A stretch of 63,983 nucleotides of DNA, the filler included, from Collodictyon triciliatum (lineage: Eukaryota): NCBI GenBank assembly GCA_043381765.1. It is 6 parts of 6 records of this genome, joined end to end, with 100 filler letters (N's around TTAATTAATTAA, not from the genome) between each part and the next. Parts side by side here need not be neighbours in the genome. Positions count along the whole stretch, not along the records: positions 23,917 to 35,765 come from JBHJMP010002295.1; 5 more parts are not named here. One strand, written 5' to 3'. The notes under the pieces are model-generated. The model had not been told where the DNA came from and ran no database searches. It saw nothing but the letters and a program-made list of their open reading frames with translations. The position numbers were made by a program, and so were the translations under genes. Below are positions 7,801-59,311 of this stretch, one piece after another. Each line of letters opens with the position of its first letter. Position 1 is the first letter of the stretch.

Positions 7801-8010
7801 ACGTCCGGTGCCTCTGCATTCTACATCTTTGCCTACTCTGTCTTTTACTTTGTGACAAAGCTTCAGATCCATTCGTTCGTCTCGGCGCTTCTTTTCTTTA
7901 GCTACACAACCATCATGTGCATCCTGTTCTTTGTGCTCACAGGCACTATCGGCTACCTCTCGTGCCTGTGGTTTGTCCGCAAGATTTACTCCTCCGTCAA
8001 GATCGACTAG
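4872..8010 (+). CDS. TM9SF: Transmembrane 9 superfamily (EMP70/TM9SF2/4-like) protein, multi-exon
   Basis: Signal peptide followed by [62 protein letters not shown] and [10 protein letters not shown]-terminal KID (KxD/E Golgi retention motif). Confidence 0.96.
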
Positions 8011-8199: not shown

Positions 8200-9148
8200 T
8201 CCTCCTAGGCGAATGCAATCGCTCCATGGATTCCATCAATATTTTTGAAGACGTCATTGTGTGTGTGTGTGTTCTTTTCATTTTCTTTTCATGTCTTTCT
8301 CCACTCTCCACCGAATTTGATATTCATTTTCTCTCTTCTGCAGCCTTTTTTTAAAAAAAGAAAAACAAAGTCTGATATCATCTTCAGTCACCTTTTCCCC
8401 ATCGGCAACATCATCATCTCCACTTTTTCCTCTTTTCTTTTTCCTTCTCAATTCTCTTCCTGGCTTCAAGAAAGAAAGAAAAAAGGAGAGAGAGAGAGAG
8501 AAAGAGAAAAAGAATCAGGATAATCATCGGTCCACGTGTCTGCTTTCACCCGGCTTATATCCTTAAACTTTTTTTTTTTTTTCAAGCTCGAGTCCAGAGC
8601 CTCAAAACATTGGATTGCATCCAATACAGTCGCCCAAATCATTCGGAGACGTATGGGATGTCGGGTGTGGGATGTGGGGTGTGGGGTGCGTGGTACCAGG
8701 CAAATTATACCATACGTGGTGCCCTCCGAACGCCGTCATTTTCTTTGCCCCGGCCTGTTTCGAATCTATCGGCGATCGAGTGGCGCGTGTCGATTCAATA
8801 TTTAGCCTGCATGCGAGAATAAGAGACAACAGCGCTGTTGGGCCTCCCGCCTTGAATACACAAACGTGCTTACTATTGGGAAATATAGTCCACGAAAGGA
8901 GCTTACGCATTTCCCTCTTTTCTTTTTGTATTATTGTAATGCTATATTTTTTTTTTATTCTTCCTTTCAATTATTGTAATGCTCTATTATTTATTATTAT
9001 TATTACTCTTTTTAATTTTCTAGATCGTGCCCAGTACACCAGTGGTATATTGCAACTACCGCGTTGTTTATCCTCCTCAATAATTACATTTGCTTTGAAC
9101 GGGCTGGCCAACCAGTCCGTCAAACCACTCTTCTAGAAGGACGGAGAA

Positions 9149-16157: not shown

Positions 16158-16250
16158 AGCGTTCTTTTATTCTGAACCAAAGCCAACATCTTCACCATCC
16201 TGCACAAAATTGAAAGGAAGAATAAAAAAAAAAAAGCGTTCTTTTATTCT
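16158..16250 (+). mobile_element. 5'-truncated non-LTR retroelement 3' end (family A) with poly(A) and 16-bp TSD
   Basis: AGCGTTCTTTTATTCT is duplicated at 16158-16173 and 16235-16250, flanking GAACCAAAGCC...CACCATCCTGCACAAAATTGAAAGGAAGAAT(A)n. The same tail occurs at about 35136 and 50383. Confidence 0.9.
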
Positions 16251-29647: not shown

Positions 29648-32379
29648 TTAACAATAATAACATTGACAGATTTGGTCAGTTACTTGAGTGTGCTGCTGCT
29701 GTTAATAGCTGGGCTCTTGGCTGGTGGCTCCACAGGCGATTTGGACTGTCGGCGAAGATATGACAGAAATTGCATGTACGGTTATGAAACATAAAAAAAA
29801 ATAATGAAATATATTGAATCTTTGTCGGAATGAAAAGAGGATGTATCGAGATTATCGACGGCGCATACGGAAAGGCGGTCCGGTGTTTTGTGGCCGGAAG
29901 ATGCGGATTGATGTCTGGTAGAGTTGTGGTGGAAACGAGACAAAATTTTGATTAGAACATGCAGATTATGGAAGAAAAATGTTAAAATGAATAAATTAGA
30001 ATATGCTCGATTCACACATGAATCCATAACTTTGACACTTACACTTCACTCTGTTTCATTCAGAAGGTGGCATTTGGGAGCGAATAAAAGAAAATAATGA
30101 ATATATATTCTTAGTGATTAGGGTGTGTGTTTCTGATATGTATGAGTTAATTTCAAACAAGAAAAAAAATCCACAAGTAATGCGATTTGATATATGGTTT
30201 AGGTAATCGTGAAACCGGCTCGGGTGTCTCTGCCAGAATAGACGAGCTGATATGTCGATGAAAAGAAAAAAAAGGAAAAAAAAACATTTAGACATATGGA
30301 GAGATAGTTGTCTCTTTATCAACTTTATGAAGAAGGTTTGCTTGATTAATAAAATTTGATGCAAACCTTGATTTCACGACTTTGTTTTCTCCTGACTGTT
30401 GTCCGTTTTCCTGAGTCTTTGTAATTTTTTTCAATTATGCTTTAACACACCAAATAAATTGTAATCGGATGAATGAATGTATTATTGCGCTTATAACAAT
30501 ACATTTGGAAAGGAAGGATACCTTTTTTCCACTATCACAACTTCTACAAATAGGGAATCAAAGTTAGTAGTCGAGTCATCGATGATGTGGTGTATTTTCA
30601 TGTATGCTTGGGATTCATCTGTTGAAAAGTCCCTACATGTCCGGCTCTGCCCTAGATTTTGCTTCCTCTGCATCTGCAGGGTTAGATTGCTCCTTGGCAC
30701 TTTCTTCTACCAGAATCCTAGCCGAACTAGCATTAGCAGCGTTTGTTGTACTGCGGCTAAGTCGTCTCTTTTGAATATCGTCCACCTTAATTGCATAAAA
30801 ACATAAATGCCATGAACAGAGGATGATAAAGACAACGACTATGCAAATAAACAAATATTTCTACTTTGATGAGAAAAATTCAAGCTGTTATAACATTGTT
30901 GGCTCAATTTCTATTAAAAGCAAAAAAAAAAAAAACCCTTCATTAATCGGATAATAAAAAAAAAATATAAATTGATTAAAAGAAGAAGTACGGTTGGGTG
31001 GAAGCTTACCTGCTTCAAGGATTGTGATGTAATGACACTTCTTCGTCTATACAGCTCTTTCTCCTTCTCAGCAGACAAATGACCTTCTGGGAAATCATGT
31101 AAATGCGCCTCAATCATCAATCATCAATCATCAATCATCAATAACTAATATATCAATAAGGAGATCGATTAATGACATTACTGATAACACTTTGGTCTAA
31201 CCTTTCGATTCTGTGCCAGAACTGGATGAAGCCTCCTTGTTCTCAGGCTTGAGCTCCACTTTTGTGTCTGGTTTATCTGCTTCGGATTCTCCACCGTTCG
31301 CTCTGGGCTGTTCAACCTTTGGCGGGACCGTCAGATTCTTTTCCAAGATTTCTTGCCAGCGCTGTCTGTTCCCCAAAAGATTTTGGCACGTATCTTGCAA
31401 CCCCCGAACCATTATTGCGAGTGATGTGAAAAGCGGTGTTGCAATAAAGTCGATGAAATTCAACGTAGAGCGCGCCTAAATAAATAGCCAGGCTTACTTT
31501 TTGACGTACCATCCTTATTGATAAATGAATAGAGTGATTTTATATACAAAAGCAACATGGCATTATTTTTCAGCCTTAAACGCGTATTTACTTGATTCGA
31601 GTCTTCCCTGTCCATAAACGGAGAAACAGGTAGCCCGTAGGACTTTTCAAGGTCTCCCTATTAACAATTCGCGTGCTTAAAAGGCATGTATCATAAAACA
31701 CTTTATTCTTTTTCTCCTTGCAGAAGATAAGCACTAAAAAGAATTTACCTTACATAATTCCAACTAGTTTAAAACTTAATCTAAAAATATGAACCTGGCT
31801 AAAGAATTCGTCTCGAACGCGGTCAGACCAGACTTTGCCGATATCGAACGGCTTCGTTACATTCGAAATATCCGCACAATGCAACATAACAGCGCACAGG
31901 AAATCCCTAATTATTTTTTAAATAATAGGAAGGTTTTGATACTATGTTGAACAGAGAATATTAATTTTAGAGGATTATTAAAAAAAAAAATCATATGGAT
32001 AAAAGAAGAAATCGAGTTTATGAAATTTGTAGATAAACTGTGTTGCTTGCTTTTATGTCAGATATTGAAAAAATAAAAAGGGAGTAATGGGATACAGAGT
32101 TATTGAATTAGTCTATGCCTGTCTTCCTTCTTTTCTGGAGACAAAACAATCTCCTCAGTTTCAGCCTTTAGATTATTTGTGAGTCTTGACAGCCTAAAGT
32201 TTATCTTTGATACGGATGTTTTATTTTTTTTAAAATTATTTACCTTTTTTGATAATTGGGATAGTTTGGCAGTCATTTCAAAATGCTTGGCCATGTCAGT
32301 CGAAAGTATCATATTCAGAATGTTTTTTCTCGCCTGTATATTTTTAAGGATAATCGATGATTCGATAAGTATACCCTGT

Positions 32380-32454
<75 letters not shown>

Positions 32455-35400
32455 AATTTTTCATGACGTTGTGAACTTTCTAATGAAATGGTAGTGTTTG
32501 TAAGCAAAAAAAAAAAAAAAATTGCAGTTGACGATGCCAGCGTATACCAATATCTGAAATATGGTAGGCAAAGCTCGATTAATAATTTACATCTTTGAAC
32601 TGGGTAGTTGTCAGCCCTTGGAGAATATTTGTATTCTTGGGATGCAAATCATATTCGCCGCTCCGCTTCTTGTTCAAATACTCGATGTAGTATCCTGAAT
32701 GAATTTTACATGAGTGTGTTTTTGGAAAGACAAACTTCAGAAGGAAAGCACTTGCTATTGATGGAGCGTATTTACTTCCTTGTACAGTTAATAAGGTCGA
32801 ATTTAAACCTGGATTTTTTGATATCTCTTCAAGTGGGTATTCATAACGCCTCATAATTTCGAACGTTTTTGCTGCATGGTGGCTTTCTAGAACCGAGACA
32901 TCATTGTAAACTCGAGCCAGCTCGGTTTGTGTGCTTATTTGGAATGCGTTGTTCTGAGTTTATATTTGGATAAGATGGTATTAAAAAAAATAAGGCTCAT
33001 AAATGTCACTCATTCGGACTCATAAATAAATAAACTTTCATTATTGTGTATATTTTGTCAATTAGAAAATCTATATTTTTTTTTGTTGATTTATATTATT
33101 TATGTGTATCTGTTTACTTTAAGGAAATAATAGTATGAAGAGTTTGCATGAATTGCCAACAAACCTGCCCCGGATGACCAACATCATGCGAAATGGCGGA
33201 CACCATCAAAGCAAGAACATCGAGTGGCTGCAAAATTTCTCTATAAATTTAACAATTTGTATTTGTTAACTTGCTTATTTTTTTATTTATTTGGTTGGTT
33301 GGTTGATGGCTTGACTAAATTGACAATTTTACATTCAAATATAAAATATATAAAAGAGTTTGGATGAAATGAATTGAAAAATGTGTATGCTCTATTGTGC
33401 AGGTATTAACCTAGCATTTGTCCGCGTTATATAATAATACACAGTTTGCGAAACGTCGACAGCATGAAAAAAGTTGTGATAAGGATTATCCCGGTATCTA
33501 TTTTATGCAAAACAAATAAAGAACATTACAGAAATCATATTAGATTAAGATTTAGCCATGAAAATAGTGGCACATGTTGAGAGGTGATGTTTCATAACGG
33601 AATTTTGTTATAAGATACGCAAGTTTATAAATAAAGTGTAGAAGAACTACTCCAGGGCCATATGATCGATGAAGTTGGACAGTGTGCTCGGCTTTATCAT
33701 GAAAGTTTTTAACAGGTCCAAATCCTAATTACGTATGTAACGAACCAAATGATTAAAAAAAAATAGAGAAACGACGAAACTCGGCAGATTAAAAAATATA
33801 CGTAATATCTATTTTTTATGAGATGATGAAACAAACCTCAAACATATAAATGATACATTTTTTAAGCTCATCGACACTCTTCGAGAACAAGTCGAAATGC
33901 TCGCTTCGTAAAACGGTCAAAATATCTACAGGAACTTGAGGCCGAATTTCCGTGCAAAACGACATAGAGAACAGCTTTCTTCTGCTTTTCATGAGGCTGT
34001 AGGACGTTCTATTGATGTATGTATTAAAAAAAAAAAAGGATCAAAATCGTATTCCATATTTTCTCACAGCTAATGTATTTTTTTTGTTTGATTGACTTAA
34101 AGTGACAGTTATGGGGTTCTACTGCTTAAAAATATTTATATAAAAAATTACTTGAGTGCTTGCATCGCTTTATTGGGCATCGGATTCCCTTTGAGACGCA
34201 CATACGTAATTTTCAATTTTGGTTTGTGAGGGAATTGCATGTTCACAAAAGGGGATACTTCAATTCATTAAAAAAAAAAAATGATGATGAGATGAAAAGA
34301 CCTTTCTCTACTGCAGGTTTTTCTAAGGAATCCTGATCAGGCTTTTCTGCATCTACTTTTGGTTGCACATCTGGCGACTTTACGGCCTCTTTTACATCAG
34401 ATTCCCTTGTTGGAGCAAAACAAGAAAGATATATCAATGTATGAAAGTTCGTTCGATAACTGCGTGCTTCGCATATGGAAATAATGGATATCACATACGT
34501 GGCTTTCGGTGTCCCTATATCGTCTATGACTTCAACATTTTTCTCTCTTTGATTGTTTCCCTCATCACCATTCCCTAGAACTTTTATCTCTTCATCTTTT
34601 TTCTCCCCTGAGTCGCTTGGGTTTGACTGGGCAGTTGTCTCTGTGCTCTGGTGAGCACTTCGCGCACTGAGTGGAGCAATCGCAATAGTTATTTCTGCAC
34701 CTTCAGACTGGTAGAATACAGGGAAAATAATTCCAAAATCATGATGAGCAATTATAAAACTCAACCATGATAATTTATACATGATATAACAAGAAAAAAT
34801 CGTGGCTTGAGGAAAATATGGCGACCTTCTTTGATATAAATGTAAATGTGGACGGTATGTTTCTTTCTACAAAAAGAACGGTCGTTTGCATGTGAGGAAC
34901 TAATCAGAACATGATTGGGTAAATACCTCATCCTTGTACTCCTCTTTGATATTTGGAAGGATTGCAGATGGCATTAGAGTGTTTGAGCCGAACTTTGCAA
35001 CTTCTGTGGGTATATCTATGGTGACCTATGTTATGGCATTAGTTGTACTCGCTTTTTAATTTATGGGAGGGTTAGGACAGATGGTGGCACAGTCGCATTA
35101 AATACCTCTGTTTCATCGGAAAGTCAAAACCTCCCACCATCTTGCACAAAATTGAAAGGAAGAATAAATAATAATAAAAACCTCTGTTTCATCTTCTTCA
35201 TCACTATCAGAATCAACAGTATTGTGGCCGGGGTTTACGAACTCAGTTGCGAGCCAGTTCTGCGTCATATGGTCCAATTCTGTGTCCTGGATGAAAATTA
35301 TTGAATGATAAGATGTAGATGTATGAAAATGCAGTGGAATATTATTGTTATTGTGCCATTCAAAAAGGGAGTGTACAGAACGAATTTAGAATATGTGAAC

Positions 35401-35600
35401 ATGCTAATGTTTCTTTGATCCGGTAACATAATGAGAAAGCGGATGGTCTATCTTCGACTTGCTGCAATTACTTTGACTATGGAATTGGCCAGTTCGGATG
35501 TCTTTATCTCATTCTTTTTTAACTCAGCATCTAAAATCTTTCTTTGAACAGCGAGCTGTCCATTTAATGTGAAGATGCGTACGCGAAGTCCCGAAATAGT
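28419..35600 (-). CDS. Class I 3',5'-cyclic nucleotide phosphodiesterase, many exons, 5'-partial, long low-complexity C-tail
   Basis: Minus-strand exons encode YHNFFHAVDV, SAISHDVGHPG, ELARVYNDVSVLESHH, MILSTDMAKHF, LHCADISNVTKPF...EFFSQ|GDLEK, VSPFMDR and NFIDFIATPLF. The last exon ends MLPPLRNTTRAKPSNGL* at 28419. Confidence 0.93.
35104..35193 (+). mobile_element. 5'-truncated family A retroelement 3' end with 14-bp TSD, antisense within the PDE gene at an exon/intron junction
   Basis: ACCTCTGTTTCATC is duplicated at 35104-35117 and 35180-35193 around ...CACCATCTTGCACAAAATTGAAAGGAAGAATAAATAATAATAAAA. Confidence 0.9.
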
Positions 35601-35666
35601 CTGATTTCATCGTTGGCATTAAGTCAATAATTAAAAATATGGACAACGCAAATATTTTAGCTTTAC

Positions 35667-35765
<99 letters not shown>

Positions 35766-36120
35766 NNNNNNNNNNNNNNNNNNNNNNNNNNNNNNNNNNN
35801 NNNNNNNNNTTAATTAATTAANNNNNNNNNNNNNNNNNNNNNNNNNNNNNNNNNNNNNNNNNNNNCAAAAAAACAAAAAAACAAAAAAACAAAAAAACAA
35901 AAAACAAAAAACAAAAAACAAAAAACAAAAAACAAAAAACAAAAAACAAAAAACAAAAAACAAAAAACAAAAAACAAAAAAAACAAAAAACAAAAAACAA
36001 AGAAACTAAATGAAAACGAAAGCAAGACCTTATCTTTAATTTTTTCCCTCTCCTTTATTATGCGCTAGCATCTCCTGTCATTTCACTTATTTTTCGCAAC
36101 TATTAAACCACACCCTAGCC

Positions 36121-38070
36121 ATGAAAATTGGAGCTGTAGACTTCGAGAGGGCAGCTCCTTCGCTCGGAGATGACAAGGTGATCGCCTGGGACGATTGTGA
36201 GACCATGAAGGAGGACAAAGTCGGAGAATCATCCCAAGGCTGTGGGGAAAGCGACCAAGCTCAAGAAAAATCAAAAAGGACGAAAGTTTACGGCAATTGT
36301 GTCTCAGAGGATCAAAATCAAAGTAAACAGGGCGATGGAGAAGATAAAAAAAAAGAATGGATAGACAACAAGAGTTCTTTAGTGACTCTTTCAATTCGAA
36401 AAGAAACAAGAATTATAAGCAAGAGTAAGACAATATTCAACGAAATAGTAAAAAATCAGAACATACGAGAGAAACTTGCTCAATTTTACAAGAGCAAGGG
36501 ATTCTCTTTATTTGCAGCTTTTTCATGGATCCTTAACGACATAGTGGTGCTATCATATTGTTACCACAAGGAGATCATACCTACGGCTATATTTGCTCCT
36601 TTTCAGATAGCATATGCCGCAAACTTCTGCATTCTACACTCTATTTTCATACGTATTGATATTGTTCGAGAACTTTCGAAATCATTCAATTTTTGGTACA
36701 CGATTTGGAACTACATGTCGTTTCACATCTGCCTTATAGCACTATGGGGGGTCTCGTTGAAAACATTTTGCATCATGATACATTCCATGTCAAGTGTCAT
36801 GCTTTTAATATTATTTGATGCTCATGCTGCAAAAATAGTTACTACGATGAAGGTTGTCGTATTGATAGGAGTGGTATCTTACGTTCCGATAATACTCCTT
36901 CTGGTGCTTAAATTGGTAGAGTTCGAGACAGAAAAACTATACCTGGAGGGAGGCAACTATCAAATTGTCGACATCAGACTACAAGCCATAGACAATGCCA
37001 TGACGACAGTAATATATCTTCTACGCATTCTTTACATGCACACTATTAGAAAGACACCAAGTTCGATCGCATTTGTGTCGAGTTTTTATGAAATCGTGAA
37101 AGTTGGTTCAAAAAATATGACAAATAGCAGATGTGTTGTTCCTATGGAAAGGGAATCAGAGGCACATGAAATGCAATCTATTGTCTTGGGTCAAACAAAT
37201 GCTAATTTGAGGTCTTTCGTATCTCCAAATAATTCTAAGGATGTTTTAAGTGGCAAACCCAGTAACATAGAACCATCACAAGCAGCATCAAACGATCAAT
37301 CTCAGTTACCTGCTGCCCTTCCTGAACATTCTGACCTTGAAAATTATCTTGTCATTGGAATTACAGAGTCCAATACGATAACATATGACCTGAAACAAAC
37401 GGTTTTTCATAGATATATCAAAAACAGATATCCTGTGGTGTCGCGGATACTTCGATCGAAATATTACAACGCCTTTGGAATTCTGATTAATATATTGTCC
37501 ACAATTATATCCCTTCCACTATCTTCAGGCATTGAACTTGGCCACATAATCGAATACATAGGTACGGTCATTGTAAGCCTCGGAGTTGCTTACATTATCC
37601 TTCAAATTACAATCACATGTAATTTTTTCATGTTTAGGCATATGGCCAACTCATTTGACTTTTGGTTTGTCATGTTTTTGGTCATGAAAGCGTTTCTTTC
37701 CTCAGGAATTTTGTGTCAATGGGATTCAAGAATGATGCATTGGTTTTTTATTGTACTTGCACTCGCTTGGTTTGTGATGATTGATACCTTTCATGTAAAT
37801 TATCGAAAATCTTCATACATTGCAATTTTTGGAATAACGTGGGGTATTATATCCACGATTTTCAGCAAGATTAATTTTGGCCGCACCTTCGAGCGAGACA
37901 GATTCATTTACTTCAGAGGGGTGCAAATCATTTCAGCTAAAATATCTCTAACAACGTCAACAATATCAGCCTGGGTGTTCTTTATACGTTTTCTTTGGAC
38001 ATATCACAGAAACAAAAATCGGATCTTATTCATCACAGAAAATATCAAAGTAGAGCCACTACTTTCGTAA
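36121..38070 (+). CDS. Intronless 649-aa polytopic membrane protein made of two homologous halves
   Basis: Single ORF with two multi-TM blocks sharing motifs (VRELSKSFNFWY / FRHMANSFDFWF; ILFDA / VMIDT; IYLLRILY / VFFIRFLW), separated by a Ser/Asn-rich linker. Confidence 0.85.
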   Translation: MKIGAVDFERAAPSLGDDKVIAWDDCETMKEDKVGESSQGCGESDQAQEKSKRTKVYGNCVSEDQNQSKQGDGEDKKKEWIDNKSSLVTLSIRKETRIISKSKTIFNEIVKNQNIREKLAQFYKSKGFSLFAAFSWILNDIVVLSYCYHKEIIPTAIFAPFQIAYAANFCILHSIFIRIDIVRELSKSFNFWYTIWNYMSFHICLIALWGVSLKTFCIMIHSMSSVMLLILFDAHAAKIVTTMKVVVLIGVVSYVPIILLLVLKLVEFETEKLYLEGGNYQIVDIRLQAIDNAMTTVIYLLRILYMHTIRKTPSSIAFVSSFYEIVKVGSKNMTNSRCVVPMERESEAHEMQSIVLGQTNANLRSFVSPNNSKDVLSGKPSNIEPSQAASNDQSQLPAALPEHSDLENYLVIGITESNTITYDLKQTVFHRYIKNRYPVVSRILRSKYYNAFGILINILSTIISLPLSSGIELGHIIEYIGTVIVSLGVAYIILQITITCNFFMFRHMANSFDFWFVMFLVMKAFLSSGILCQWDSRMMHWFFIVLALAWFVMIDTFHVNYRKSSYIAIFGITWGIISTIFSKINFGRTFERDRFIYFRGVQIISAKISLTTSTISAWVFFIRFLWTYHRNKNRILFITENIKVEPLLS

Positions 38071-38835: not shown

Positions 38836-42416
<3,581 letters not shown>

Positions 42417-42430
42417 ACCAAAGACACGGC

Positions 42431-43330
42431 ATGAGCGGCACACCGCCCGCCGAACACGCGATCCTGCAGATCAGCGACGACGACAACGACGACGACAACG
42501 ACCGCGACCGCCTCAACGACGAGGACAGCACGGCAGGGGAGAGCAGCGAATGCCGGATCTGCCGGGAGGGCGGGGGCGCGGCGGGGCCGCTGGTGAGCGC
42601 GTGCGAGTGCCGGGGCAGCGTGGGGCGGGTGCATCTCGAGTGCCTGGGGCGGTGGCTGGAGCTGCGGCCGGTGGAGGCGGGTGCGGGTGCGGGTGCGGGT
42701 GCGGAGGGGCGGCCGCGGTGCGAGGTGTGCCGGGGGGCGTACCGGGTGAGCTACGCGCGTGCGCAGGGGCAGGGGCAGGGGCAGGGGCAGGGGCAGGCGT
42801 GGGCGTGGGCGAGGACCGCGGCCGGGTGGCGGGCGTGTGGGGAGGCTGCGTGCCTGGTGGCCACGGCCCCCGCCCTGCTGCTGCACGCGCGCCTCATCGA
42901 CCGCACAGACCCGCCCGCCCTGCCCACGCGCGTGCTGCTGGGCGTCCTGGCCTTTGCCGTCTTCCTGGCCCTGCCTGCCGCCCTGCGCTCCATCCACGCC
43001 CGCTGCCGCGCCGCCCACGCCGCCCCCGCCGCCCTCGTCCTCACGCTCCTCCCACAGACGCAGACGGAGGCGGAGGCGGAGGCGGTGACCCCCCCACACG
43101 CGCAGGCGCCGTTCCCCCCCGCACGCGCCGCCCTCGCGCTGCTGCTCCTCGCCGGCACCCTCGCCGCGTACATCTCCCTCTGGGCCGCCCTTGAGACCCG
43201 CGCCGCCCCCCACACCGCCGTCCCTGTCCTGCTCCTCGCCGCCGTCGCCGCCGCAGTCGTCTCCTGCCTCGCCGCCCTGCTCCTCCGCCTCGCTGCCCGC
43301 CGCACGACTCCCCCCGACGCCCTGAATTAA
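42431..43330 (+). CDS. MARCH-type RING-CH (RINGv) membrane E3 ligase, intronless, very GC-rich
   Basis: CRICREGGGAAGPLVSACECRGSVGRVHLECLGRW...RCEVCR (C4HC3), followed by about 4 hydrophobic segments. Confidence 0.9.
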   Translation: MSGTPPAEHAILQISDDDNDDDNDRDRLNDEDSTAGESSECRICREGGGAAGPLVSACECRGSVGRVHLECLGRWLELRPVEAGAGAGAGAEGRPRCEVCRGAYRVSYARAQGQGQGQGQGQAWAWARTAAGWRACGEAACLVATAPALLLHARLIDRTDPPALPTRVLLGVLAFAVFLALPAALRSIHARCRAAHAAPAALVLTLLPQTQTEAEAEAVTPPHAQAPFPPARAALALLLLAGTLAAYISLWAALETRAAPHTAVPVLLLAAVAAAVVSCLAALLLRLAARRTTPPDALN

Positions 43331-47710: not shown

Positions 47711-49369
47711 TTNNNNNNNNNNNNNNNNNNNNNNNNNNNNNNNNNNNNNNNNNNNNTTAATTAATTAANNNNNNNNNNNNNNNNNNNNNNNNNNNNNNNN
47801 NNNNNNNNNNNNGGATGTTTTAGTTGAGATAAAATAACACTGAACATTAAATTAGTCGCTCTGGTCGGTATTCGCCACGACATTAGGCAAGCGTGCGGCG
47901 TTGAGATAGCTTTTGTTGTTATGAGAACGTATTGGTGATAATATATAGATGTAAACGCCCGCGCTAATTGAGAGCAATCGTGATTTCTTTCCTTGAAAAT
48001 GTACATCTTGGTTGGTGATTGAATGATGGTGCAAGGTTGATGTCGACCGGTAAGTGGTTCAATTTGAAAATCGCCTCAATTTTTCCGTGGACTATTTTTT
48101 ATTTTTTACATCCTGACGACGTTCCATCAATCATTGCATCCAGAAAATAGACGAAACAATGAGGCTGGGATGGGGAACGTGATATGAGGATTTTACCATT
48201 GCGAGTTGCTTCGTTGTGATAATCCTAAAAGGTGTCTATATGCGGAAAATACGTGGAATCTGTTGCTTGAACAGTAATTATATTGGTAATCAGGATAATT
48301 ATGATAAAAATTAGCAACCAGTCGTAGCTTACTAATTATTAGTTCTCATATAACTTCTCTTGAATCTGCATAATGCCAGAAGTTGATAGACGTTATTTTC
48401 TATTGGGTCACTTGGCGTCACTTTGAATCGTCATCTGCCACAATTATTTTACAACTTCAGCCACAAAGTGCTGGAGATTTATATATCGTTTGACATGTAC
48501 GCGCACAGAAATGAGCGCCTCGAGGGTCTTTCAATATAGGAAGAAAAAAATTACAAAGGACAAAGTGTCACTTTTTTAAATCAATATTCACAATTACATG
48601 GTATTTTCCAAGAATTCATGAATTTTTGCAAAGAAAAAACAAAAAGATTTTCATTGAAGACCTATTTTTTGCTTAGCTTTTTGTCAAAATATTTTTTCTT
48701 TCATACATATTGAGAAAATTAGTTTCCCTTCGTTTCTTGGAGAAAATAATCACATCTTTTCATTCGAGATTGTAGAGCTTTGGGGAAGAACAACTATATA
48801 AATACCCTCCATTCATTTTTATCTTCAAGAAATAACAGAGGATGAAAAAATGAAATAATTTCTTGACCCTCAGAAACCCACATGCCTGAGCATTTATTTT
48901 GATAAGCTTCGAGGATGTGAATTCAACTTCGTAATTAAAATTGTGGCAGACAAGTTAAAAATTTTTTATTGGGAACAATATTTTTCAGTTTTTTGAAAGA
49001 ATCGCGCACCTGCAAAAATATTCTCGACCACTATTTGATTAACTATTGAAGCAGAGGTTTTTTTTATCAACGCTAAGCTGAAATTCTGGGTTGGATGAAT
49101 GAAATGTAGTGTAATCAACGATGCAACCAGTGAAAGGGAAAACCAAACAAGCGCATAAAACATAAAAAAACATAAAAAACATAAAAAACATAAAAAAACA
49201 TAAAAAAACATAAAAAACATAAAAAACATAAAAAACATAAAAAACATAAAAAACATAAAAAAACATAAAAAAACATAAAAAACATAAAAAGCAGAAAAAC
49301 AGAAAAAAACAGAAAAACAGAAAATAAATTTAAATTTTTGCCATATTCACGTTCAAATAAAAGGAAAAG

Positions 49370-49870
49370 ATGGAAAAAGCAGTCTGTCCTTACTGCACCA
49401 AGGAATTATCCTCAAAAAGAAATCGCCGATTGCATCTAAATATTTGCAAACTCAACCCGGAGCGTCATCAAATTGTATTTCTGTGTGCTGATTGTCCAAC
49501 ATGGAAAGGTTTCTCGGAGCAAGCTCGCAAAGAACACCTTAAATCAAAAAATCATCAAAGGAATACCGTCAATACTTTAAGAATTAAACAAAATATCTAT
49601 TCGTTCCCACATGAATATCAATTTTCACAAAAACAACCTCCCATGATTTCATCACGGAGAGGCCATCTCCCTTTTAACTATCTAGATATCGTGTTGAATC
49701 CTGAACTTTCCTCAGAACATAAGAGTGCGGATGTTGCCTCTGATTTAACTGAAAAAAGTAAAAACATGTTCAACCTGAGCACGAAAACTGAACCCACAAT
49801 AAATGCTGCGTTGTGTCTCCTCCATCTAGCACATCGATATACCCATAAACCGAATTCGGCAATCTATTGA
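49370..49870 (+). CDS. Intronless 166-aa zinc-finger protein
   Basis: CPYC-x12-HLNIC (C2HC) and CADC...HLKSKNH (C2H2, matrin-like spacing); C-terminal AALCLLHL. Confidence 0.75.
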   Translation: MEKAVCPYCTKELSSKRNRRLHLNICKLNPERHQIVFLCADCPTWKGFSEQARKEHLKSKNHQRNTVNTLRIKQNIYSFPHEYQFSQKQPPMISSRRGHLPFNYLDIVLNPELSSEHKSADVASDLTEKSKNMFNLSTKTEPTINAALCLLHLAHRYTHKPNSAIY

Positions 49871-50038
49871 GCATGAACATCATGAAATCATAAAGTTATA
49901 ATGGAATAGTTGAAATATGGGTCTCACAAATGACTTGTATTGACTTTATCATTATCAACAAAGATCTGTTTTATTTGGAACAAATAAATAGCAAAAAAAA
50001 TTTTAAGTTTCATTTTTTAATAAAATTACATTTGTTCA

Positions 50039-50444
50039 AAGGCGGTTGATTTGGATAGCGCGCACATACTCGCGCAAAGCAAGACTCAACAACCAGCCAC
50101 CCATTCCTGATAACAGGCTGAATGATATCATACAAACATCTTTCCTCAACGGCTTTCTTCGCCACTTGCACGTTCCCTACTACTCAGACCCTGTGGGAAG
50201 TAAGATGTGGAAAGGATCTGATAAGGAGATTAAACATCGCCTTGTCTCACTCATGCAAGCACAAGACCCAGGCTACAGGCCAAACCGTAGGATGCAATTC
50301 CTGATTACCGACTACTTCTCCGCCATCCGGACACCAAGTAGCGTCCATGCAAGCGATGGCTAGCGAACCAAAGCAAAAAACGCACCATCTCGCACAAAAT
50401 TGAAAGGATGAATAATAATAATAAAAAAAGAGGGCGATTGATTT
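50039..50444 (+). mobile_element. 5'-truncated family A LINE retaining the ORF2 C-terminus (ORF to 50363), 3' UTR and A-rich tail
   Basis: Family A tail (GAACCAAAGC...CACCATCTCGCACAAAATTGAAAGGATGAATAATAAT) immediately after the TAG at 50363; imperfect TSD AAGGCGGTTGATTT / AGGGCGATTGATTT (12/14). The peptide aligns with the LINE at 57.3-58.0 kb. Confidence 0.85.
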
Positions 50445-56100: not shown

Positions 56101-57130
56101 GGTAATTTAAGAAAACAGAGTTTATCGTCACACCCATTTCTCGCGACTAATCCATTTTTTATTTTCAAAATAAAGGCAATATGGAATGCTCCCACTGATG
56201 TTCCTGACCATGCTCTCTGTGCATGCATATGCGCAGTACGATATACCGTAAGTTCATTCAGATTGAATTTTTGTAACCTTGTCAATAATTTTTGGAATGA
56301 AATTTCTGTCAATCGACTTTGTTACATATAAATATGTATTTTCATATGAGCAGCGCGTGATGGGAGAGCTGAACAGCAAGTGGATATCAAAGAGACTTGT
56401 CAAGGACCCTCTCAACGTGCGAATTGGGATACACACAGGTCCCGTGTATGCTGGAAATATCGGGTCATCCAAGCGCATGAAGTACGACTCTATTGGAGAC
56501 ACAATGAACCTGGCGTCGAGGTGCAGATATATTCAATTTTCTCTGTTGGTCGCCCTCACCTATCTTAGTTTTATTATTCAATTATTGCAATATGACAGTT
56601 CAGTCTCAATAGTGTCGAGCAACATGGTTAATCAGAAAAATAGTAAAATATGGTTTTTTTTTCAGGCTCGAGGGTTTAAACAAGCGTTACAAAACAAATG
56701 TCATCATAAGCGAGGAGACGCGCAATTCTATTCAACCTCGCATGATATCTAGACCTCTTGAATACGTGGTGGTGAAAGGAAAGTATGTCAAATACAAATA
56801 CACTCATTATTCGAGTGATTGCTTTAAATCATATGAGATTGATAAAAAAAAATATGAATTATTTGCAGAACAAGCCGAACTCAAATCCACGAATTGCTTG
56901 CCGATACTCAAGAAAGTGGAGAGCATGATGTCAGCAAAGCAAATTCCAAACAAAGCGCATCGATGCCATTCCAACACTTTACCCAGATGACCAGCCCGCA
57001 GAAAAATGATGCCATTAGCCATCTGAGCGACTACTGCGACACCAACCCGTCTGACAGACCAATGAGGGTGCTGATGGGTATAGTGAGCGCACCGAATTAC
57101 GATGGTGTGACCATTTTGGACGAGAAGTGA
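53111..57130 (+). CDS. Receptor-type class III nucleotidyl cyclase (TM-Cache-TM-HAMP-cyclase), many short exons
   Basis: Cache-like YNSTARPWY...GPTWTHV and ENGEAYIL; HAMP ISRPLNVVADAMQNI...REIRMIQSSF; cyclase motifs VTVMFT|DIEGFTTLSE, DFIGDA, VRIGIHTGPVYAGNIGS, YDSIGDTMNLASR|LEGLNK, VKGK and DGVTILDEK*. Confidence 0.94.
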
Positions 57131-57275: not shown

Positions 57276-58028
57276 TTTTTTTTTTTCCTTTATTCGATTC
57301 AAAGTGCAGCGGGGTTATGCCATACAAAGGGGCGGGATGGGAGCGCATGGGAGAGAGCAAACGTGATAGGAGAAGACACTACCGTGGAGACCAGCACCGG
57401 AAAGAAGTCAGTGATAGCGAGTTGGTCGGGTGGGCGGCTCAAATGGCTGATTGGTTGCGTGGGCAGCAGGGGTTGGATGTGCTGTGGGAGATATCACACG
57501 ACACATTCCCACATCTCTCTTCGTTTGCGGTCAGAGTAGCGAAGAATGCGGGCGTGTTTCAGCAGACTGTTCAGGAAGCTGTATTGCACGAGGCTCTCAA
57601 GCCTGGATACATGGATATCTCGTTCGGGTGAATCATTAGAGTGAGAGAATGCACGCACACTCCATAAGGACCACAGCATATGTCCCCTTGTGACTGTCCA
57701 GAGTATTCTAGAGTCGTGGGTCATTTGCTATTGTGGGCCAAACAGGATGTCAGACGCGCTGAGTCGGTTGGGAGCATAATCAAGCTCAGAGAGCATCTTG
57801 TGGGTATACTCTGTCACTTTTTGAGCAAGAGAGCACTTCACAAATGTGTGTTCGATAGATTCATCTCCACTATGGCACATGGTGCATTCTGGAGAGGTCG
57901 TTGCTGCTTGGACTACACGCGCACCTATCCACAGCTCTCTGTTGGAGATATTGAGCAGTAGGGCGCGGTGTTTCGGGAGTAGCCGAGATATGTTTGACAT
58001 GACACAAGCTCGACACAACCCACCCTGC
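57276..58028 (-). mobile_element. Decayed L1/Tx1-type non-LTR retrotransposon 3' portion (zf-RVT + C-terminus)
   Basis: One frame with two in-frame stops (57728, 57494): ECTMCHSGDESIEHTFVKC (CCHC zinc knuckle), LWSLWSVR; final TGA at 57301-57299 inside TTGAATCGAATAAAGG, then (A)11. Confidence 0.9.
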
Positions 58029-58075
58029 TAAAAAAAAAAAAAATTCAAAGCAGCTCAGCACCTAGCCGGCCAGTG

Positions 58076-59311
58076 ATGCTTCCCGCCTGCTTTGCCCTTT
58101 TGATCGCAGCCACATGTCTTTTCGCCCAGGGGATCGGGGGACAAGAATGGACATACCTCACAACAGTGAGCCCCACCACAAGCGTGAGGAACTCGCAGTT
58201 TGGTCGCCGTCTCAGCACCTCGGAGAACCACGCCCTCTTCGGCGTCCCAGCATTCGCAACAGGTGGAGTCCTTTCGTCGGGTATTTGCTTTATCTACGAA
58301 CAGACAGGCAGGACCTGGTCTCTCCAGCAAACGGTCAGCAGCGAACAGCCGCGCTCAAACGAAGGCTTCGGGTCCAGTGTTGCGGTTCATCAGACCACGT
58401 TATTAGTCGGTGCTCCTGGAACATCAGCGATTGCCGGAACAGCCTATATCTTTGTGCTTTCCCAGGCCGATTCATCGTGGGTACATGCCACCAACTTGAC
58501 ACTATCTGGAAACAGTGCCGGCTTCCGATTCGGCCTCGCAGTCGCCTTATGCGATGACTACGCATTGGTTTCGGCTCCCTATCAAACAGTGATGGGCAAA
58601 GAGAATTCTGGTGCGCTTTATGTCTACATTCGTGTTCTAGCCACTCAGAGAGGGAAGATTCACGGCCAGCGCCTGAATTATTCCTGGGTTTACGAGGCGA
58701 TGTTGGTGCCACCCACTCCTGCCGCAAACCAATACACGGGATTCTCTGTGGCTGCCTCAAATGATTATGCGGCTGGTTCTTCGCCTTATGCAAGCTCCAA
58801 AGGTGTTGTATACGTATTTTCCAACCCAAAAGTACGCGGAGTACAATGGAGCTTAATGGCTCAAGTTACCGCTTCAAATATTGCAGACTCTTACTTTGGA
58901 GCCAGTATATCAATGGCCTTGCCTTATTTAATTTCATCAGCCGATTACGATAATGGCGGTGCCCTTGAGGCAGGGGCTGTGTATCTATTTAAGCTGGATC
59001 AAACTAATACGACGTGGGTTCAGATTAGTAAGATAATATCCCCAAGTCCTGGGTTCGACTTTCGTTTTGGAATTGCGCTCTCGGCATCTACAATTCCAAA
59101 AACTATAATGATTGCGGATACCGAGTCAAACATCTTTACATTCGTCCTTGATGGGGACACTCCAGTTTTCCATGATCGAAAGAACGGGTCGAATGTGGCC
59201 GTCAGTCCGTCATCCAGGCATCGGATTAGAGGAAATTATGCCTCTTATTCTGGGTCAGGACAGGCTGACTTTGATTACGATGCTTCTCTCTTTTCGAGTA
59301 GGTTTTTCTAA
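58076..59311 (+). CDS. Secreted or surface FG-GAP repeat (integrin-alpha-like beta-propeller) protein; may continue by splicing past the contig end
   Basis: Signal peptide, then about 6 repeats of FG.S(V/L)A....L.V(G/S)AP...G..Y(V/I)F (e.g. FGSSVAVHQTTLLVGAP...AGTAYIF; FGLAVALCDDYALVSAP...SGALYVY). Confidence 0.88.
   Translation: MLPACFALLIAATCLFAQGIGGQEWTYLTTVSPTTSVRNSQFGRRLSTSENHALFGVPAFATGGVLSSGICFIYEQTGRTWSLQQTVSSEQPRSNEGFGSSVAVHQTTLLVGAPGTSAIAGTAYIFVLSQADSSWVHATNLTLSGNSAGFRFGLAVALCDDYALVSAPYQTVMGKENSGALYVYIRVLATQRGKIHGQRLNYSWVYEAMLVPPTPAANQYTGFSVAASNDYAAGSSPYASSKGVVYVFSNPKVRGVQWSLMAQVTASNIADSYFGASISMALPYLISSADYDNGGALEAGAVYLFKLDQTNTTWVQISKIISPSPGFDFRFGIALSASTIPKTIMIADTESNIFTFVLDGDTPVFHDRKNGSNVAVSPSSRHRIRGNYASYSGSGQADFDYDASLFSSRFF

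What the first reader, a model, noticed from the sequence alone, without database searches (positions are those of the whole stretch)
35104..35193. Retroelement inserted at a splice donor; its TSD duplicates AG|GT and can make the insertion spliceable
Seen: on the PDE (minus) strand the exon ends ...GAT GAA ACA GAG|. The 14-bp TSD copies this exon end plus GT, giving a new donor GAG|GTTTTT (35181) and, 76 nt further on, the original GAG|GTATTT (35105). Using only the old donor would add 76 nt, shift the frame and hit TGA, yet the PDE exons I read look intact. Inference: either the new donor absorbs the element into the intron, or the element is removed as its own GT-AG intron directly abutting the old intron (a recursive AG|GT site). 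Either would be a snapshot of TSD-driven splice-site or intron creation by a non-LTR element.
Basis: partly seen in the sequence, partly recalled or inferred. Interest (0 to 1): 0.7.

Follow-up and report, generated by a model that had tools for sequence, protein, structure and literature searches.

The report
Retroelement tail at a splice donor
A 62-base retroelement fragment landed exactly on an exon-intron border of a phosphodiesterase gene, but the insertion duplicated the exon end plus GT, so the transcripts seen are still spliced normally: a neat but ordinary outcome.

Summary
A perfect 14-bp direct repeat (GATGAAACAGAGGT on the minus strand, 35193-35180 and 35117-35104) flanks 62 bp that end in an A-rich tail on the + strand. 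Related copies elsewhere in the window have their own 14-15-bp duplications. This is a 5'-truncated non-LTR retroelement tail, antisense to a minus-strand class I phosphodiesterase gene. The duplication holds the last 12 exon bases plus GT.

Spliced contigs in two runs of one study join 35182 directly to 35025. The exon-proximal GT is the donor in the form seen, and the element, the second repeat copy and the old intron make one 156-nt intron. With that junction the reading frame is open over 22 exons and 773 codons. The distal donor would add 76 nt containing an in-frame TGA.

A DNA contig from an independent freshwater metagenome carries the same insertion, so it is not an assembly artefact.

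Three things stay open. The RNA sources may or may not carry the insertion, because an empty allele gives the same mRNA. Removal may be direct or in two steps. The family may or may not prefer such sites.

There is no sign of intron creation: 0 of 13 other introns carry this signature. I rate it an ordinary event at an unusual position, of low to moderate interest.

The parts
35180..35193 (-). Exon-proximal copy of the 14-bp target-site duplication: the last 12 exon bases (35193-35182) plus GT (35181-35180). This GT is the donor in the spliced form seen.
   Evidence: perfect repeat; joint 35023->35180, cut +2, ends CT..AC on +, X1 depth 37.7 with side 97, X2 depth 21.5 with side 27.
35118..35179 (+). 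62-bp 5'-truncated non-LTR retroelement tail, antisense to the gene. It ends ...TTGAAAGGAAGAATAAATAATAATAAAA. Clear family homology runs from about 35134 to 35176.
   Evidence: In one search, many contigs of all 4 runs match only 35134-35176 and then run on unlike; depth in this bin is 190-249 in X1/X2 against roughly 1-28 in the other bins of the gene.
35104..35117 (-). Distal copy of the duplication: a 12-nt pseudo-exon end plus the GT that still sits in front of the original intron sequence (GTATTT). It is an unused or decoy donor, and in-frame TGA lies at 35116-35114.
   Evidence: None of the 15 joints printed uses 35105; 6 further joints were not printed.
35182..35286 (-). 105-nt phase-0/0 exon of the phosphodiesterase gene (DTELDHMTQNWLATEFVNPGHNTVDSDSDEEDETE), in an acidic linker upstream of the catalytic domain.
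   Evidence: joints 35285->35471 and 35023->35180.
35026..35181 (-). The intron as removed: 156 nt, made of GT, the element, the second duplication copy and the 80 nt of the former intron.
   Evidence: 'skips 156'; GTTTTTATTA...CATAACATAG.
34927..35025 (-). Next exon, 99 nt (VTIDIPTEVAKFGSNTLMPSAILPNIKEEYKDE).
   Evidence: joints 35023->35180 and 34707->34927.
16159..16250 (+). Second family copy: 62-bp element at 16174-16235 with a poly-A tail, flanked by a 15-bp duplication GCGTTCTTTTATTCT.
8930..8983 (-). Third family copy: a 26-bp extreme 3' end (8944-8969) flanked by a 14-bp duplication.
50383..50429 (+). Fourth family copy, with more upstream body. Its 5' end and duplication were not found.
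   Evidence: One search found no Pfam family in the adjacent + strand ORFs 49361-49867 and 50007-50360.

Best explanation
A non-LTR retroelement RNA was inserted by target-primed reverse transcription, antisense to the phosphodiesterase gene. The first nick fell on the gene's sense strand between +2 and +3 of the intron (GAGGT|ATTTAA). The T at the nick primed on the element's A-rich tail. The second nick fell 14 nt upstream, inside the exon, and fill-in duplicated the last 12 exon bases plus GT. The exon therefore stays joined to a GT, now followed by the U-rich complement of the tail (GTTTTT in place of GTATTT, a change at +3 only). The spliceosome uses this first donor with the old acceptor at 35026. 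The 62-bp element and the second copy, a decoy donor 76 nt downstream, simply lengthen the intron from 80 to 156 nt, and the protein is unchanged. Shown here: the anatomy, the family, the mRNA junction, the open frame, and the filled site in independent DNA. Inferred: the order of nicks, that the transcripts come from filled alleles, and that removal happens in one step.
For: The perfect 14-bp duplication is far beyond chance (2 matches, 0 of 100 shuffles reach 2). An A-rich tail abuts it. Family copies of 26, 62, 62 and more than 47 bp share one 3' end, and two have their own 14-15-bp duplications. These are hallmarks of 5'-truncated LINE-type insertions (established knowledge). In one search, contigs of X1 and X2 (2 runs, 1 study) join 35182 to 35025. 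X1 record 5 (659 nt) runs 34586-34707 / 34927-35023 / 35180-35285 / 35471-35602 with its own coordinates continuous (220 follows 219) and 0-1 other letters per printed piece. The 15 printed joints include 13 simple GT-AG or GC-AG introns (GC-AG after a 1-nt shift for one of them), all on the minus strand, which shows these records are spliced RNA. With this junction the frame is open for 773 codons over 22 exons, and catalytic-domain motifs (HNFFHAVDV, HDVGHPG; labels recalled) are present. T at +3 is common in this gene: of the 20 other donors, A 12, T 7, C 1; among the 12 other donors printed, 4 have T. X3, a freshwater metagenome from another study, has a 219-nt contig spanning 35105-35320 (all but the last base of the distal repeat copy, the element, the proximal copy, the exon and the upstream intron) with 3 other letters and 3 gaps. 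The filled site therefore exists in independent DNA as a slightly different allele (table 8). No run showed an empty-site joint ('skips 76') among the joints printed. Precedent: in human F7, a minisatellite that repeats the exon 7-intron 7 border gives identical downstream donors that stay silent while the most upstream one is used (PMC1557585, abstract).
Against: An mRNA from an empty allele would be identical, so the junction alone does not prove that a filled allele is spliced this way. X1 and X2 are not the window's genotype: all of their depth differs at 32903 and 34551 (table 3). Contigs drop rare forms, and an old-donor product carries a premature stop and would probably be degraded, so its absence proves nothing. 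By the gene's own donors the distal site (A at +3) is slightly the better match, and it lies nearer the acceptor. Six joints and 192 contig pieces were not printed. Both RNA runs belong to one study. No reverse-transcriptase ORF of the family was found in the window.
Confidence: 0.72

Rival explanations
1. The normal junction seen in X1/X2 comes from alleles, or closely related lineages, that lack the insertion. The filled allele in the window is mis-spliced at the distal donor (+76 nt, premature TGA) and is a null or weak allele kept by drift, heterozygosity or clonal reproduction.
For: The mRNA cannot tell filled from empty, because the duplication equals the exon end. X1/X2 differ from the window at 32903 and 34551. 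X1 holds two variants of exon 34498-34615 that differ at 4-5 places (tables 3 and 8), so two haplotypes or copies exist in that source. The distal donor has the commoner A at +3.
Against: Both DNA sources that cover the site, the window and X3 record 12, are filled, and they differ from each other, which suggests a shared and older insertion. No 76-nt skip was printed for any run. The transcript contig matches the window's exons with 0-1 other letters per printed piece. The rest of the gene is intact over 22 exons, which is not expected of a long-dead allele. The F7 precedent favours the upstream donor.
Confidence: 0.13
2. Two-step, recursive removal. The 76-nt unit 35181-35106 (GT from the first copy, AG from the second) is spliced out as its own intron. 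This regenerates GAG|GTATTT, and the old 80-nt intron is then removed.
For: The unit has GT...AG ends, a TTTTGAC branch-like motif about 19 nt upstream of the AG (read; the motif consensus is recalled), and a length close to the shortest intron of the gene (78 nt). Acceptors in this gene are weak and varied. The final mRNA is the same as observed.
Against: No intermediate or lariat evidence exists, and contigs cannot give any. One-step use of 35181 with the old acceptor needs nothing extra. The acceptor context GATGAAACAGAG has no pyrimidine tract.
Confidence: 0.08
3. This is not a retrotransposition. The 62 bp are filler DNA captured during repair of a staggered double-strand break or a local duplication, and the repeat is a repair product.
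For: Short direct repeats also flank repair-derived insertions. The first ~16 nt (35118-35133) match the other window copies poorly.
Against: The insert shares its 3' 45 nt and tail with a multi-copy family whose other members have their own duplications. The tail abuts the duplication, as target-primed reverse transcription predicts. The region upstream of 35134 is variable and A/C-rich across family copies in the runs (table 7), so the first 16 nt may simply be a subfamily variant.
Confidence: 0.03

Closest known systems
5'-truncated LINE-type (non-LTR) insertions made by target-primed reverse transcription
   Same: A-rich 3' tail next to the duplication, a 14-16-bp duplication that differs per copy, copies of different length sharing one 3' end, and an AATAAA just before the tail.
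   Different: No reverse-transcriptase or endonuclease ORF of this family was found in the window, so autonomous LINE versus SINE-like passenger is not settled. The nick context GGT|ATTTAA is not the TTTT|AA of mammalian L1 (recalled).
Introners: transposons that become introns and recruit splice sites from their target-site duplication (Gozashti et al. 2022, PMC9860276; passages read)
   Same: A splice-site dinucleotide lies in the duplication, and insertion plus splicing leaves the mRNA unchanged.
   Different: Introners create new introns inside exons, occur as many near-identical introns, and mostly show signatures of DNA transposons with 3-9-bp duplications. Here a retroelement landed on an existing donor, no intron was gained, and 0 of 13 other introns of the gene show the signature.
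Human F7 intron 7 minisatellite spanning the exon 7-intron 7 border (Borensztajn et al. 2006, PMC1557585; abstract read)
   Same: The exon end plus donor is repeated downstream. The repeated donors are functional in principle, yet the most upstream one is the donor used.
   Different: That case is a 37-bp tandem repeat with identical donors in a mammal, tested by mutagenesis. Here there is one extra copy 76 nt away, made by a retroelement, the used donor differs at +3, and nothing was tested at the bench.
Intron gain by tandem duplication of an AGGT-containing segment (PMC3265369 and PMC4974935; search listing and abstract starts only)
   Same: Duplication of ...AG|GT... puts a GT upstream and an AG downstream, which together could bound a removable unit. 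The 76-nt unit has exactly this form.
   Different: In those cases the duplicated unit lies within an exon and becomes a new intron. Here it abuts an old intron, and the mRNA is equally explained by one enlarged intron.
Recursive splice sites and stwintrons, i.e. nested or abutting introns removed in consecutive reactions (PMC9024468; search listing and abstract start only; Drosophila recursive sites recalled)
   Same: An AG|GT lies inside the removed region at 35106|35105 and could serve first as acceptor, then as donor.
   Different: No evidence of consecutive reactions here. Known recursive sites typically serve very long introns (recalled), whereas this one is 156 nt.

Membership tests
Non-LTR retroelement insertion (target-primed reverse transcription) | Target-site duplication of variable sequence, about 7-20 bp, directly flanking the insert | tested here: met
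   Perfect 14-bp repeat. Other copies have 15 bp and 14 bp of different sequence.
Non-LTR retroelement insertion (target-primed reverse transcription) | A-rich or poly-A 3' tail abutting the 3' duplication | tested here: met
   Tails are ...GAATAAATAATAATAAAA at 35179, A12 at 16235 and A10 at the 8944 copy.
Non-LTR retroelement insertion (target-primed reverse transcription) | Multi-copy family with shared 3' end and variable 5' truncation | tested here: met
   There are 4 copies in the window, of 26, 62, 62 and more than 47 bp. Many contigs in all 4 laid runs match 35134-35176 only.
Non-LTR retroelement insertion (target-primed reverse transcription) | A master copy encoding reverse transcriptase (or, for a SINE, a pol III head and a LINE partner) | tested here: inconclusive
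   No Pfam family in the two ORFs upstream of the longest copy, out of 49 window ORFs scanned. The only RT-related hit, zf-RVT at 57731-58027 (-), is not linked to this family by the blastn. No genome is held.
Introner (intron-generating transposon) | Insertion creates a new intron at a site that was continuous exon | tested here: not met
   The site was already an exon-intron border. The intron grows from 80 to 156 nt, and the exon sequence and frame are unchanged.
Introner (intron-generating transposon) | Many introns of the genome are copies of the element, with the duplication at the intron ends | tested here: not met
   0 of 13 other RNA-supported introns of this gene show an exon-end repeat at the intron's 3' end (at most 4+1 nt, against 12+2 for the 76-nt unit). 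Only one gene was examined and no genome-wide test was possible.
Recursive splicing / abutting introns | Splicing intermediates or lariats that show two consecutive reactions at an internal AG|GT | not testable with these tools
Class I cyclic-nucleotide phosphodiesterase (host gene) | PDEase_I catalytic domain with an intact reading frame | tested here: met
   Pfam PF00233 matched 5 exon-bearing ORFs covering profile positions 1-184 of 238. PDB matches include PDE9A at E 6e-07 and PDE4 at about 5e-06. The frame is open for 773 codons. The subfamily was not determined.

The most novel reading that the evidence does not exclude
The duplication-bounded unit (GT of copy 1 ... antisense U-rich tail ... 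AG of copy 2) is a self-contained spliceable module. Insertions of this family at AG|GT sites, made by an endonuclease that nicks after GT at A/T-rich sequence, would be excised as their own short introns. Here that would happen recursively next to the old intron. Inside exons it would create new introns, making this a retroelement counterpart of introners.
Probability: 0.06. Interest if true: 0.7.

Novelty: new member of a known kind. Interest (0 to 1): 0.3.

Why it matters
This is a clean natural example of how a target-site duplication can make a hit on a splice junction harmless. Any duplication that spans the exon end and the GT leaves the exon attached to a donor, so such insertions can survive and merely lengthen the intron.

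By my rough estimate (an inference, not a tool result), about 4-5% of random 14-bp-duplication insertions within this intron-dense gene segment would span a donor in this way. That is 21 donors times about 12 placements over about 5.6 kb. Cases like this are therefore expected in any genome with active LINEs and short introns.

It also offers a natural two-donor competition: the same -12..+2, different at +3 and beyond, 76 nt apart, in an organism with short introns and weak donors. It would matter more if the 76-nt unit proved to be spliced on its own, or if the family proved to target AG|GT. Neither is shown.

Tried and rejected
**Blank or failed look-ups**
- Whole genome of the window: none is held, so the family-wide test of duplications against AGGT or exon ends could not be run.
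- The look-up of sequencing runs: no RNA holder listed on record. X1 and X2 are 'RNA?' guesses that I laid.
It was repeated on 30000-35765, as the tool advised.
- Protein search with the ORF holding the exon and the read-through (35116-35385, 'longer'): 10 candidates, none scored. No database gene model is available for this linker exon.
- Metagenome-contig scans for an exon 24-mer, to find filled or empty sites, and for the family's conserved 24-mer, to collect duplications: 0 loci each.
- The search of earlier findings by place, relatives and sequence: nothing.
- Protein Atlas with the EMP70 ORF, to place the organism: only 'Eukaryota'. The organism is not determined.

**Checks that gave nothing**
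- RNA fold of 35215-35085, to see whether one donor is hidden: -23.9 kcal/mol, z 0.35, and 128 of 200 shuffles fold at least as well. No evidence.
- Duplication of the 50383 copy: no exact 9-12-mer of its 3' flank within 8 kb upstream.
- The exon upstream of 35602, seen as a 202-letter loose end in X1: not found in the window at up to 2 mismatches or by 12-mers. It may lie in a masked stretch or outside the window.
- Nick-site motif from 3 copies (GAGGT|ATTTAA, ACGC(T)|ATAATA, ATGCT|CTATTA): too few copies to call a preference.

**Slips of my own**
- One search used a wrong frame and was not pursued; one search answered the question.
- One search returned 0 exon solutions because my length bookkeeping was off by one. 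This was resolved.

**Readings set aside**
- Assembly artefact: rejected, because X3 holds the filled site as a slightly different allele.
- The joint 31930->35183 in X3/X4 (side 20): treated as a chance 20-letter match from another organism.

**Literature**
- Three full-text searches turned up no paper, among the titles and abstract starts listed, describing a non-LTR insertion whose duplication preserves an existing donor. This is a blank from those listings, not proof that none exists. Subscription journals are not covered.
Full report
**What is there.**
On the minus strand the window reads ...GAAGAAGAT GAA ACA GAG|GTTTTTATTATTATTTATTCTTCCTTTCAATTTTGTGCAAGATGGTGGGAGGTTTTGACTTTCC GATGAAACAGAG|GTATTTAATG.... 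The 14-mer GATGAAACAGAGGT occurs exactly twice in 63,983 bases, at 35193-35180 and 35117-35104. With one mismatch allowed, 0.03 matches are expected, and 0 of 100 shuffles reach two. The 62 bp between the copies read on the + strand as a sequence ending ...TTGAAAGGAAGAATAAATAATAATAAAA, so an A-rich tail sits directly against the repeat.

**The insert belongs to a family with retroelement hallmarks.**
- blastn-short of the 62 bp against the window finds three more pieces: 16193-16226 (+, 34 nt, 97%), 50383-50426 (+, 45 nt, 93%) and 8972-8954 (-, 19 nt, 100%).
- The copy at 16174-16235 is also 62 bp, ends in A12, and is flanked by a 15-bp repeat, GCGTTCTTTTATTCT, at 16159 and 16236.
- The copy at 8944-8969 is only 26 bp of the extreme 3' end, flanked by a 14-bp repeat at 8930 and 8970.
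- The copy at 50383 has more upstream sequence. I found no duplication for it within 8 kb and no Pfam family in the neighbouring ORFs.
- A shared 3' end, variable 5' truncation, an A tail and copy-specific 14-15-bp duplications are the marks of target-primed reverse transcription (established knowledge). The RT-encoding master was not found.
- In the laid runs, many contigs match only 35134-35176 and then run on unlike. Depth in that bin is 190-249 in X1/X2, against roughly 1-28 in the other bins of the gene, so the family is abundant.

**The host gene.**
Pfam PDEase_I matched five minus-strand exon ORFs between 33502 and 31753, out of 136 ORFs scanned. One exon matches PDE9A and PDE4 chains in the PDB at E 2e-07 to 1e-05. 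The exon in question is 35286-35182, 105 nt and phase 0 at both ends. It encodes an acidic linker upstream of the catalytic domain. That linker has no relatives in the protein collection.

**What the transcripts show.**
No whole genome is held.
- Of the 15 joints one search printed, 13 are simple introns on the minus strand: 12 GT-AG, and one that reads as GC-AG once the cut is shifted by 1 nt. One further joint (30420->30637) has 18 contig letters between its sides, explained below. One (31930->35183, seen in X3/X4 only) I treat as a chance match.
- X1 and X2 are therefore spliced RNA of this gene.
- The joint at the finding is 35023->35180 with the cut 2 places further right. That is, 35182 is joined to 35025, skipping 156 nt with GT..AG ends (X1 depth 37.7, side 97; X2 depth 21.5, side 27).
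- X1 record 5 is continuous in its own coordinates across the joint, so nothing lies between the two sides.
- The donor in the form seen is therefore the exon-proximal GT at 35181.

**What the two donors would do to the protein.**
Using the listed joints, plus six junctions I inferred from ORFs, GT-AG ends and the contigs' length bookkeeping (one search says 6 joints were not printed), the frame is open for 773 codons over 22 exons, down to a stop in the last exon. Reading on from the exon into the element instead meets TGA at 35116-35114.

**Is GTTTTT a credible donor here?**
The two donors share -12..+2 and also +4 to +6. Within the hexamer they differ only at +3, T against A. Among the 20 other donors of the gene, +3 is A in 12, T in 7 and C in 1. 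Among the 12 other donors printed, 4 have T. The new hexamer is therefore ordinary for this gene and only slightly less typical than the old one.

**Is the insertion real and shared?**
X3, a freshwater metagenome from a different study, has a 219-nt contig covering 35105-35320. That span takes in all but the last base of the distal repeat copy, the whole element, the proximal copy, the exon and 34 nt of the upstream intron. It differs from the window by 3 letters and 3 gaps, and one of the letter differences is A for T at 35175, in the tail (tables 3 and 8). The filled site therefore exists in independent DNA as a slightly different allele, and assembly error is excluded. Among the joints printed, no run showed the 76-nt skip that an empty site would give.

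**What stays open.**
- Because the duplication equals the exon end, an mRNA from an empty allele is identical to an mRNA spliced from the proximal donor of a filled allele.
- X1 and X2 are close to the window (0-1 other letters per printed exon piece) but are not the same genotype: all of their depth differs at 32903 and 34551. X1 also holds two variants of exon 34498-34615.
- At 35175, every X1/X2 contig that covers the place is a short family match ending 5-7 nt away. No assembled transcript runs through the element by either route. Contigs show presence, not absence, and a +76-nt form with a premature stop would probably be rare.
- I therefore put 0.72 on the plain reading: filled alleles are spliced at the proximal donor and the element is just intron. 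I put 0.13 on the reading that the transcripts come from empty alleles and the filled allele is faulty.
- Two-step removal gives the same mRNA. In that scheme the 76-nt GT...AG unit goes first and the old intron second. The unit is about as long as the gene's shortest intron (78 nt) and has a branch-like TTTTGAC motif, but nothing calls for it and contigs cannot test it. I give it 0.08.

**Mechanism (inferred).**
On the gene's sense strand the sequence runs ...GAGGT, then the complement of the tail. This places the priming nick between +2 and +3 of the intron (GGT|ATTTAA) and the second nick 14 nt upstream, inside the exon. Any duplication that spans the exon end and the GT leaves the exon attached to a donor, so such hits are survivable.

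With 21 donors in about 5.6 kb and about 12 placements of a 14-bp duplication per donor, some 4-5% of random insertions in this gene segment would do so. That figure is my estimate, not a tool result. With only three usable copies, the nick context cannot be called a preference.

Two ideas could explain why the proximal donor wins:
- 5'-to-3' choice of the first donor, as shown for the repeated donors of human F7 intron 7 (PMC1557585, abstract);
- help from the U-rich run just downstream of the donor (recalled knowledge of U-rich intronic enhancers, untested here).

A fold of the region is no better than shuffles.

**Comparison with what is known.**
- Transposons whose duplication supplies a splice site are known as introners. 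In some families the 5' site, the 3' site or both are recruited from the duplication, and the mRNA is unchanged (PMC9860276, passages).
- Duplication of an AGGT segment is a known route to a new intron (PMC3265369 and PMC4974935; listing only).
- Here no intron is gained, and 0 of 13 other introns of the gene end in a repeat of the upstream exon end. The case is not an introner.
- It is best filed as an ordinary truncated LINE-type insertion at an unusual position, with the F7 minisatellite as the nearest functional analogue.
- Three literature searches turned up no description of this exact situation among the titles and abstract starts listed, which is weak evidence of absence.

**Verdict.**
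The proximal donor accounts for the mRNA seen, and there is no evidence for intron creation or for targeting of splice sites. Interest is low to moderate.

Noticed in passing
window 31907-32118 (-): An apparent GC-AG intron (gacag|GCATAG...AATTAG|gg). It is supported by one contig each in X1 and X2 (joint 31905->32118, printed with CC..TG ends; a 1-nt shift gives GC..AG).
   Followed up: partly
window 30522-30543 (-): A 22-nt micro-exon between two short introns (93 and 105 nt). X1/X2 contigs carry it with a synonymous GGA>GGT difference, which explains the '18 letters between' at joint 30420->30637.
   Followed up: partly
window 34498-34615: X1 and X2 each hold two versions of this exon: one like the window and one with 4-5 differences in 118 nt, at about 40-45% of the depth. 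These could be two haplotypes or a close paralogue in the RNA sources.
   Followed up: no
window 36040-38067 (+): An uninterrupted 676-codon ORF with no Pfam match lies on the strand opposite the phosphodiesterase gene, in what appears to be its upstream intron. The next upstream exon of the gene (about 200 nt in the contigs) is not in the readable part of the window.
   Followed up: partly
window 35672-35765 and 32373-32531: Very long A/T homopolymer runs (94 or more A; two T runs of 30-45) lie inside introns of the gene. Contigs break there.
   Followed up: no
window 31108-31147: A roughly 35-40-nt stretch inside the 115-nt intron is very deep in the two freshwater metagenomes (bin depth 89 and 272) and has variable flanks. 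It is probably another short high-copy repeat or a simple sequence.
   Followed up: no
window 57731-58027 (-) and 57998-59308 (+): A zf-RVT ORF (E 1.5e-08), the remnant of a different retroelement, lies next to and slightly overlaps a 437-codon FG-GAP-repeat ORF on the other strand, in a G+C-richer stretch.
   Followed up: no
window 5104-8007 (+), 40778-43327 (+), 56267-56749 (+): Other genes in the window: EMP70/TM9SF (E 3e-82), an 850-codon single ORF with a RING-variant domain in a stretch of 60% G+C, and a guanylate/adenylate cyclase catalytic fragment.
   Followed up: no
window 11862, 23817, 35766, 47713, 59660: N blocks of the same form (44 N, 12 letters, 44 N) recur about every 11,950 bases. 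This looks like masking or a scaffolding pattern rather than biology.
   Followed up: no
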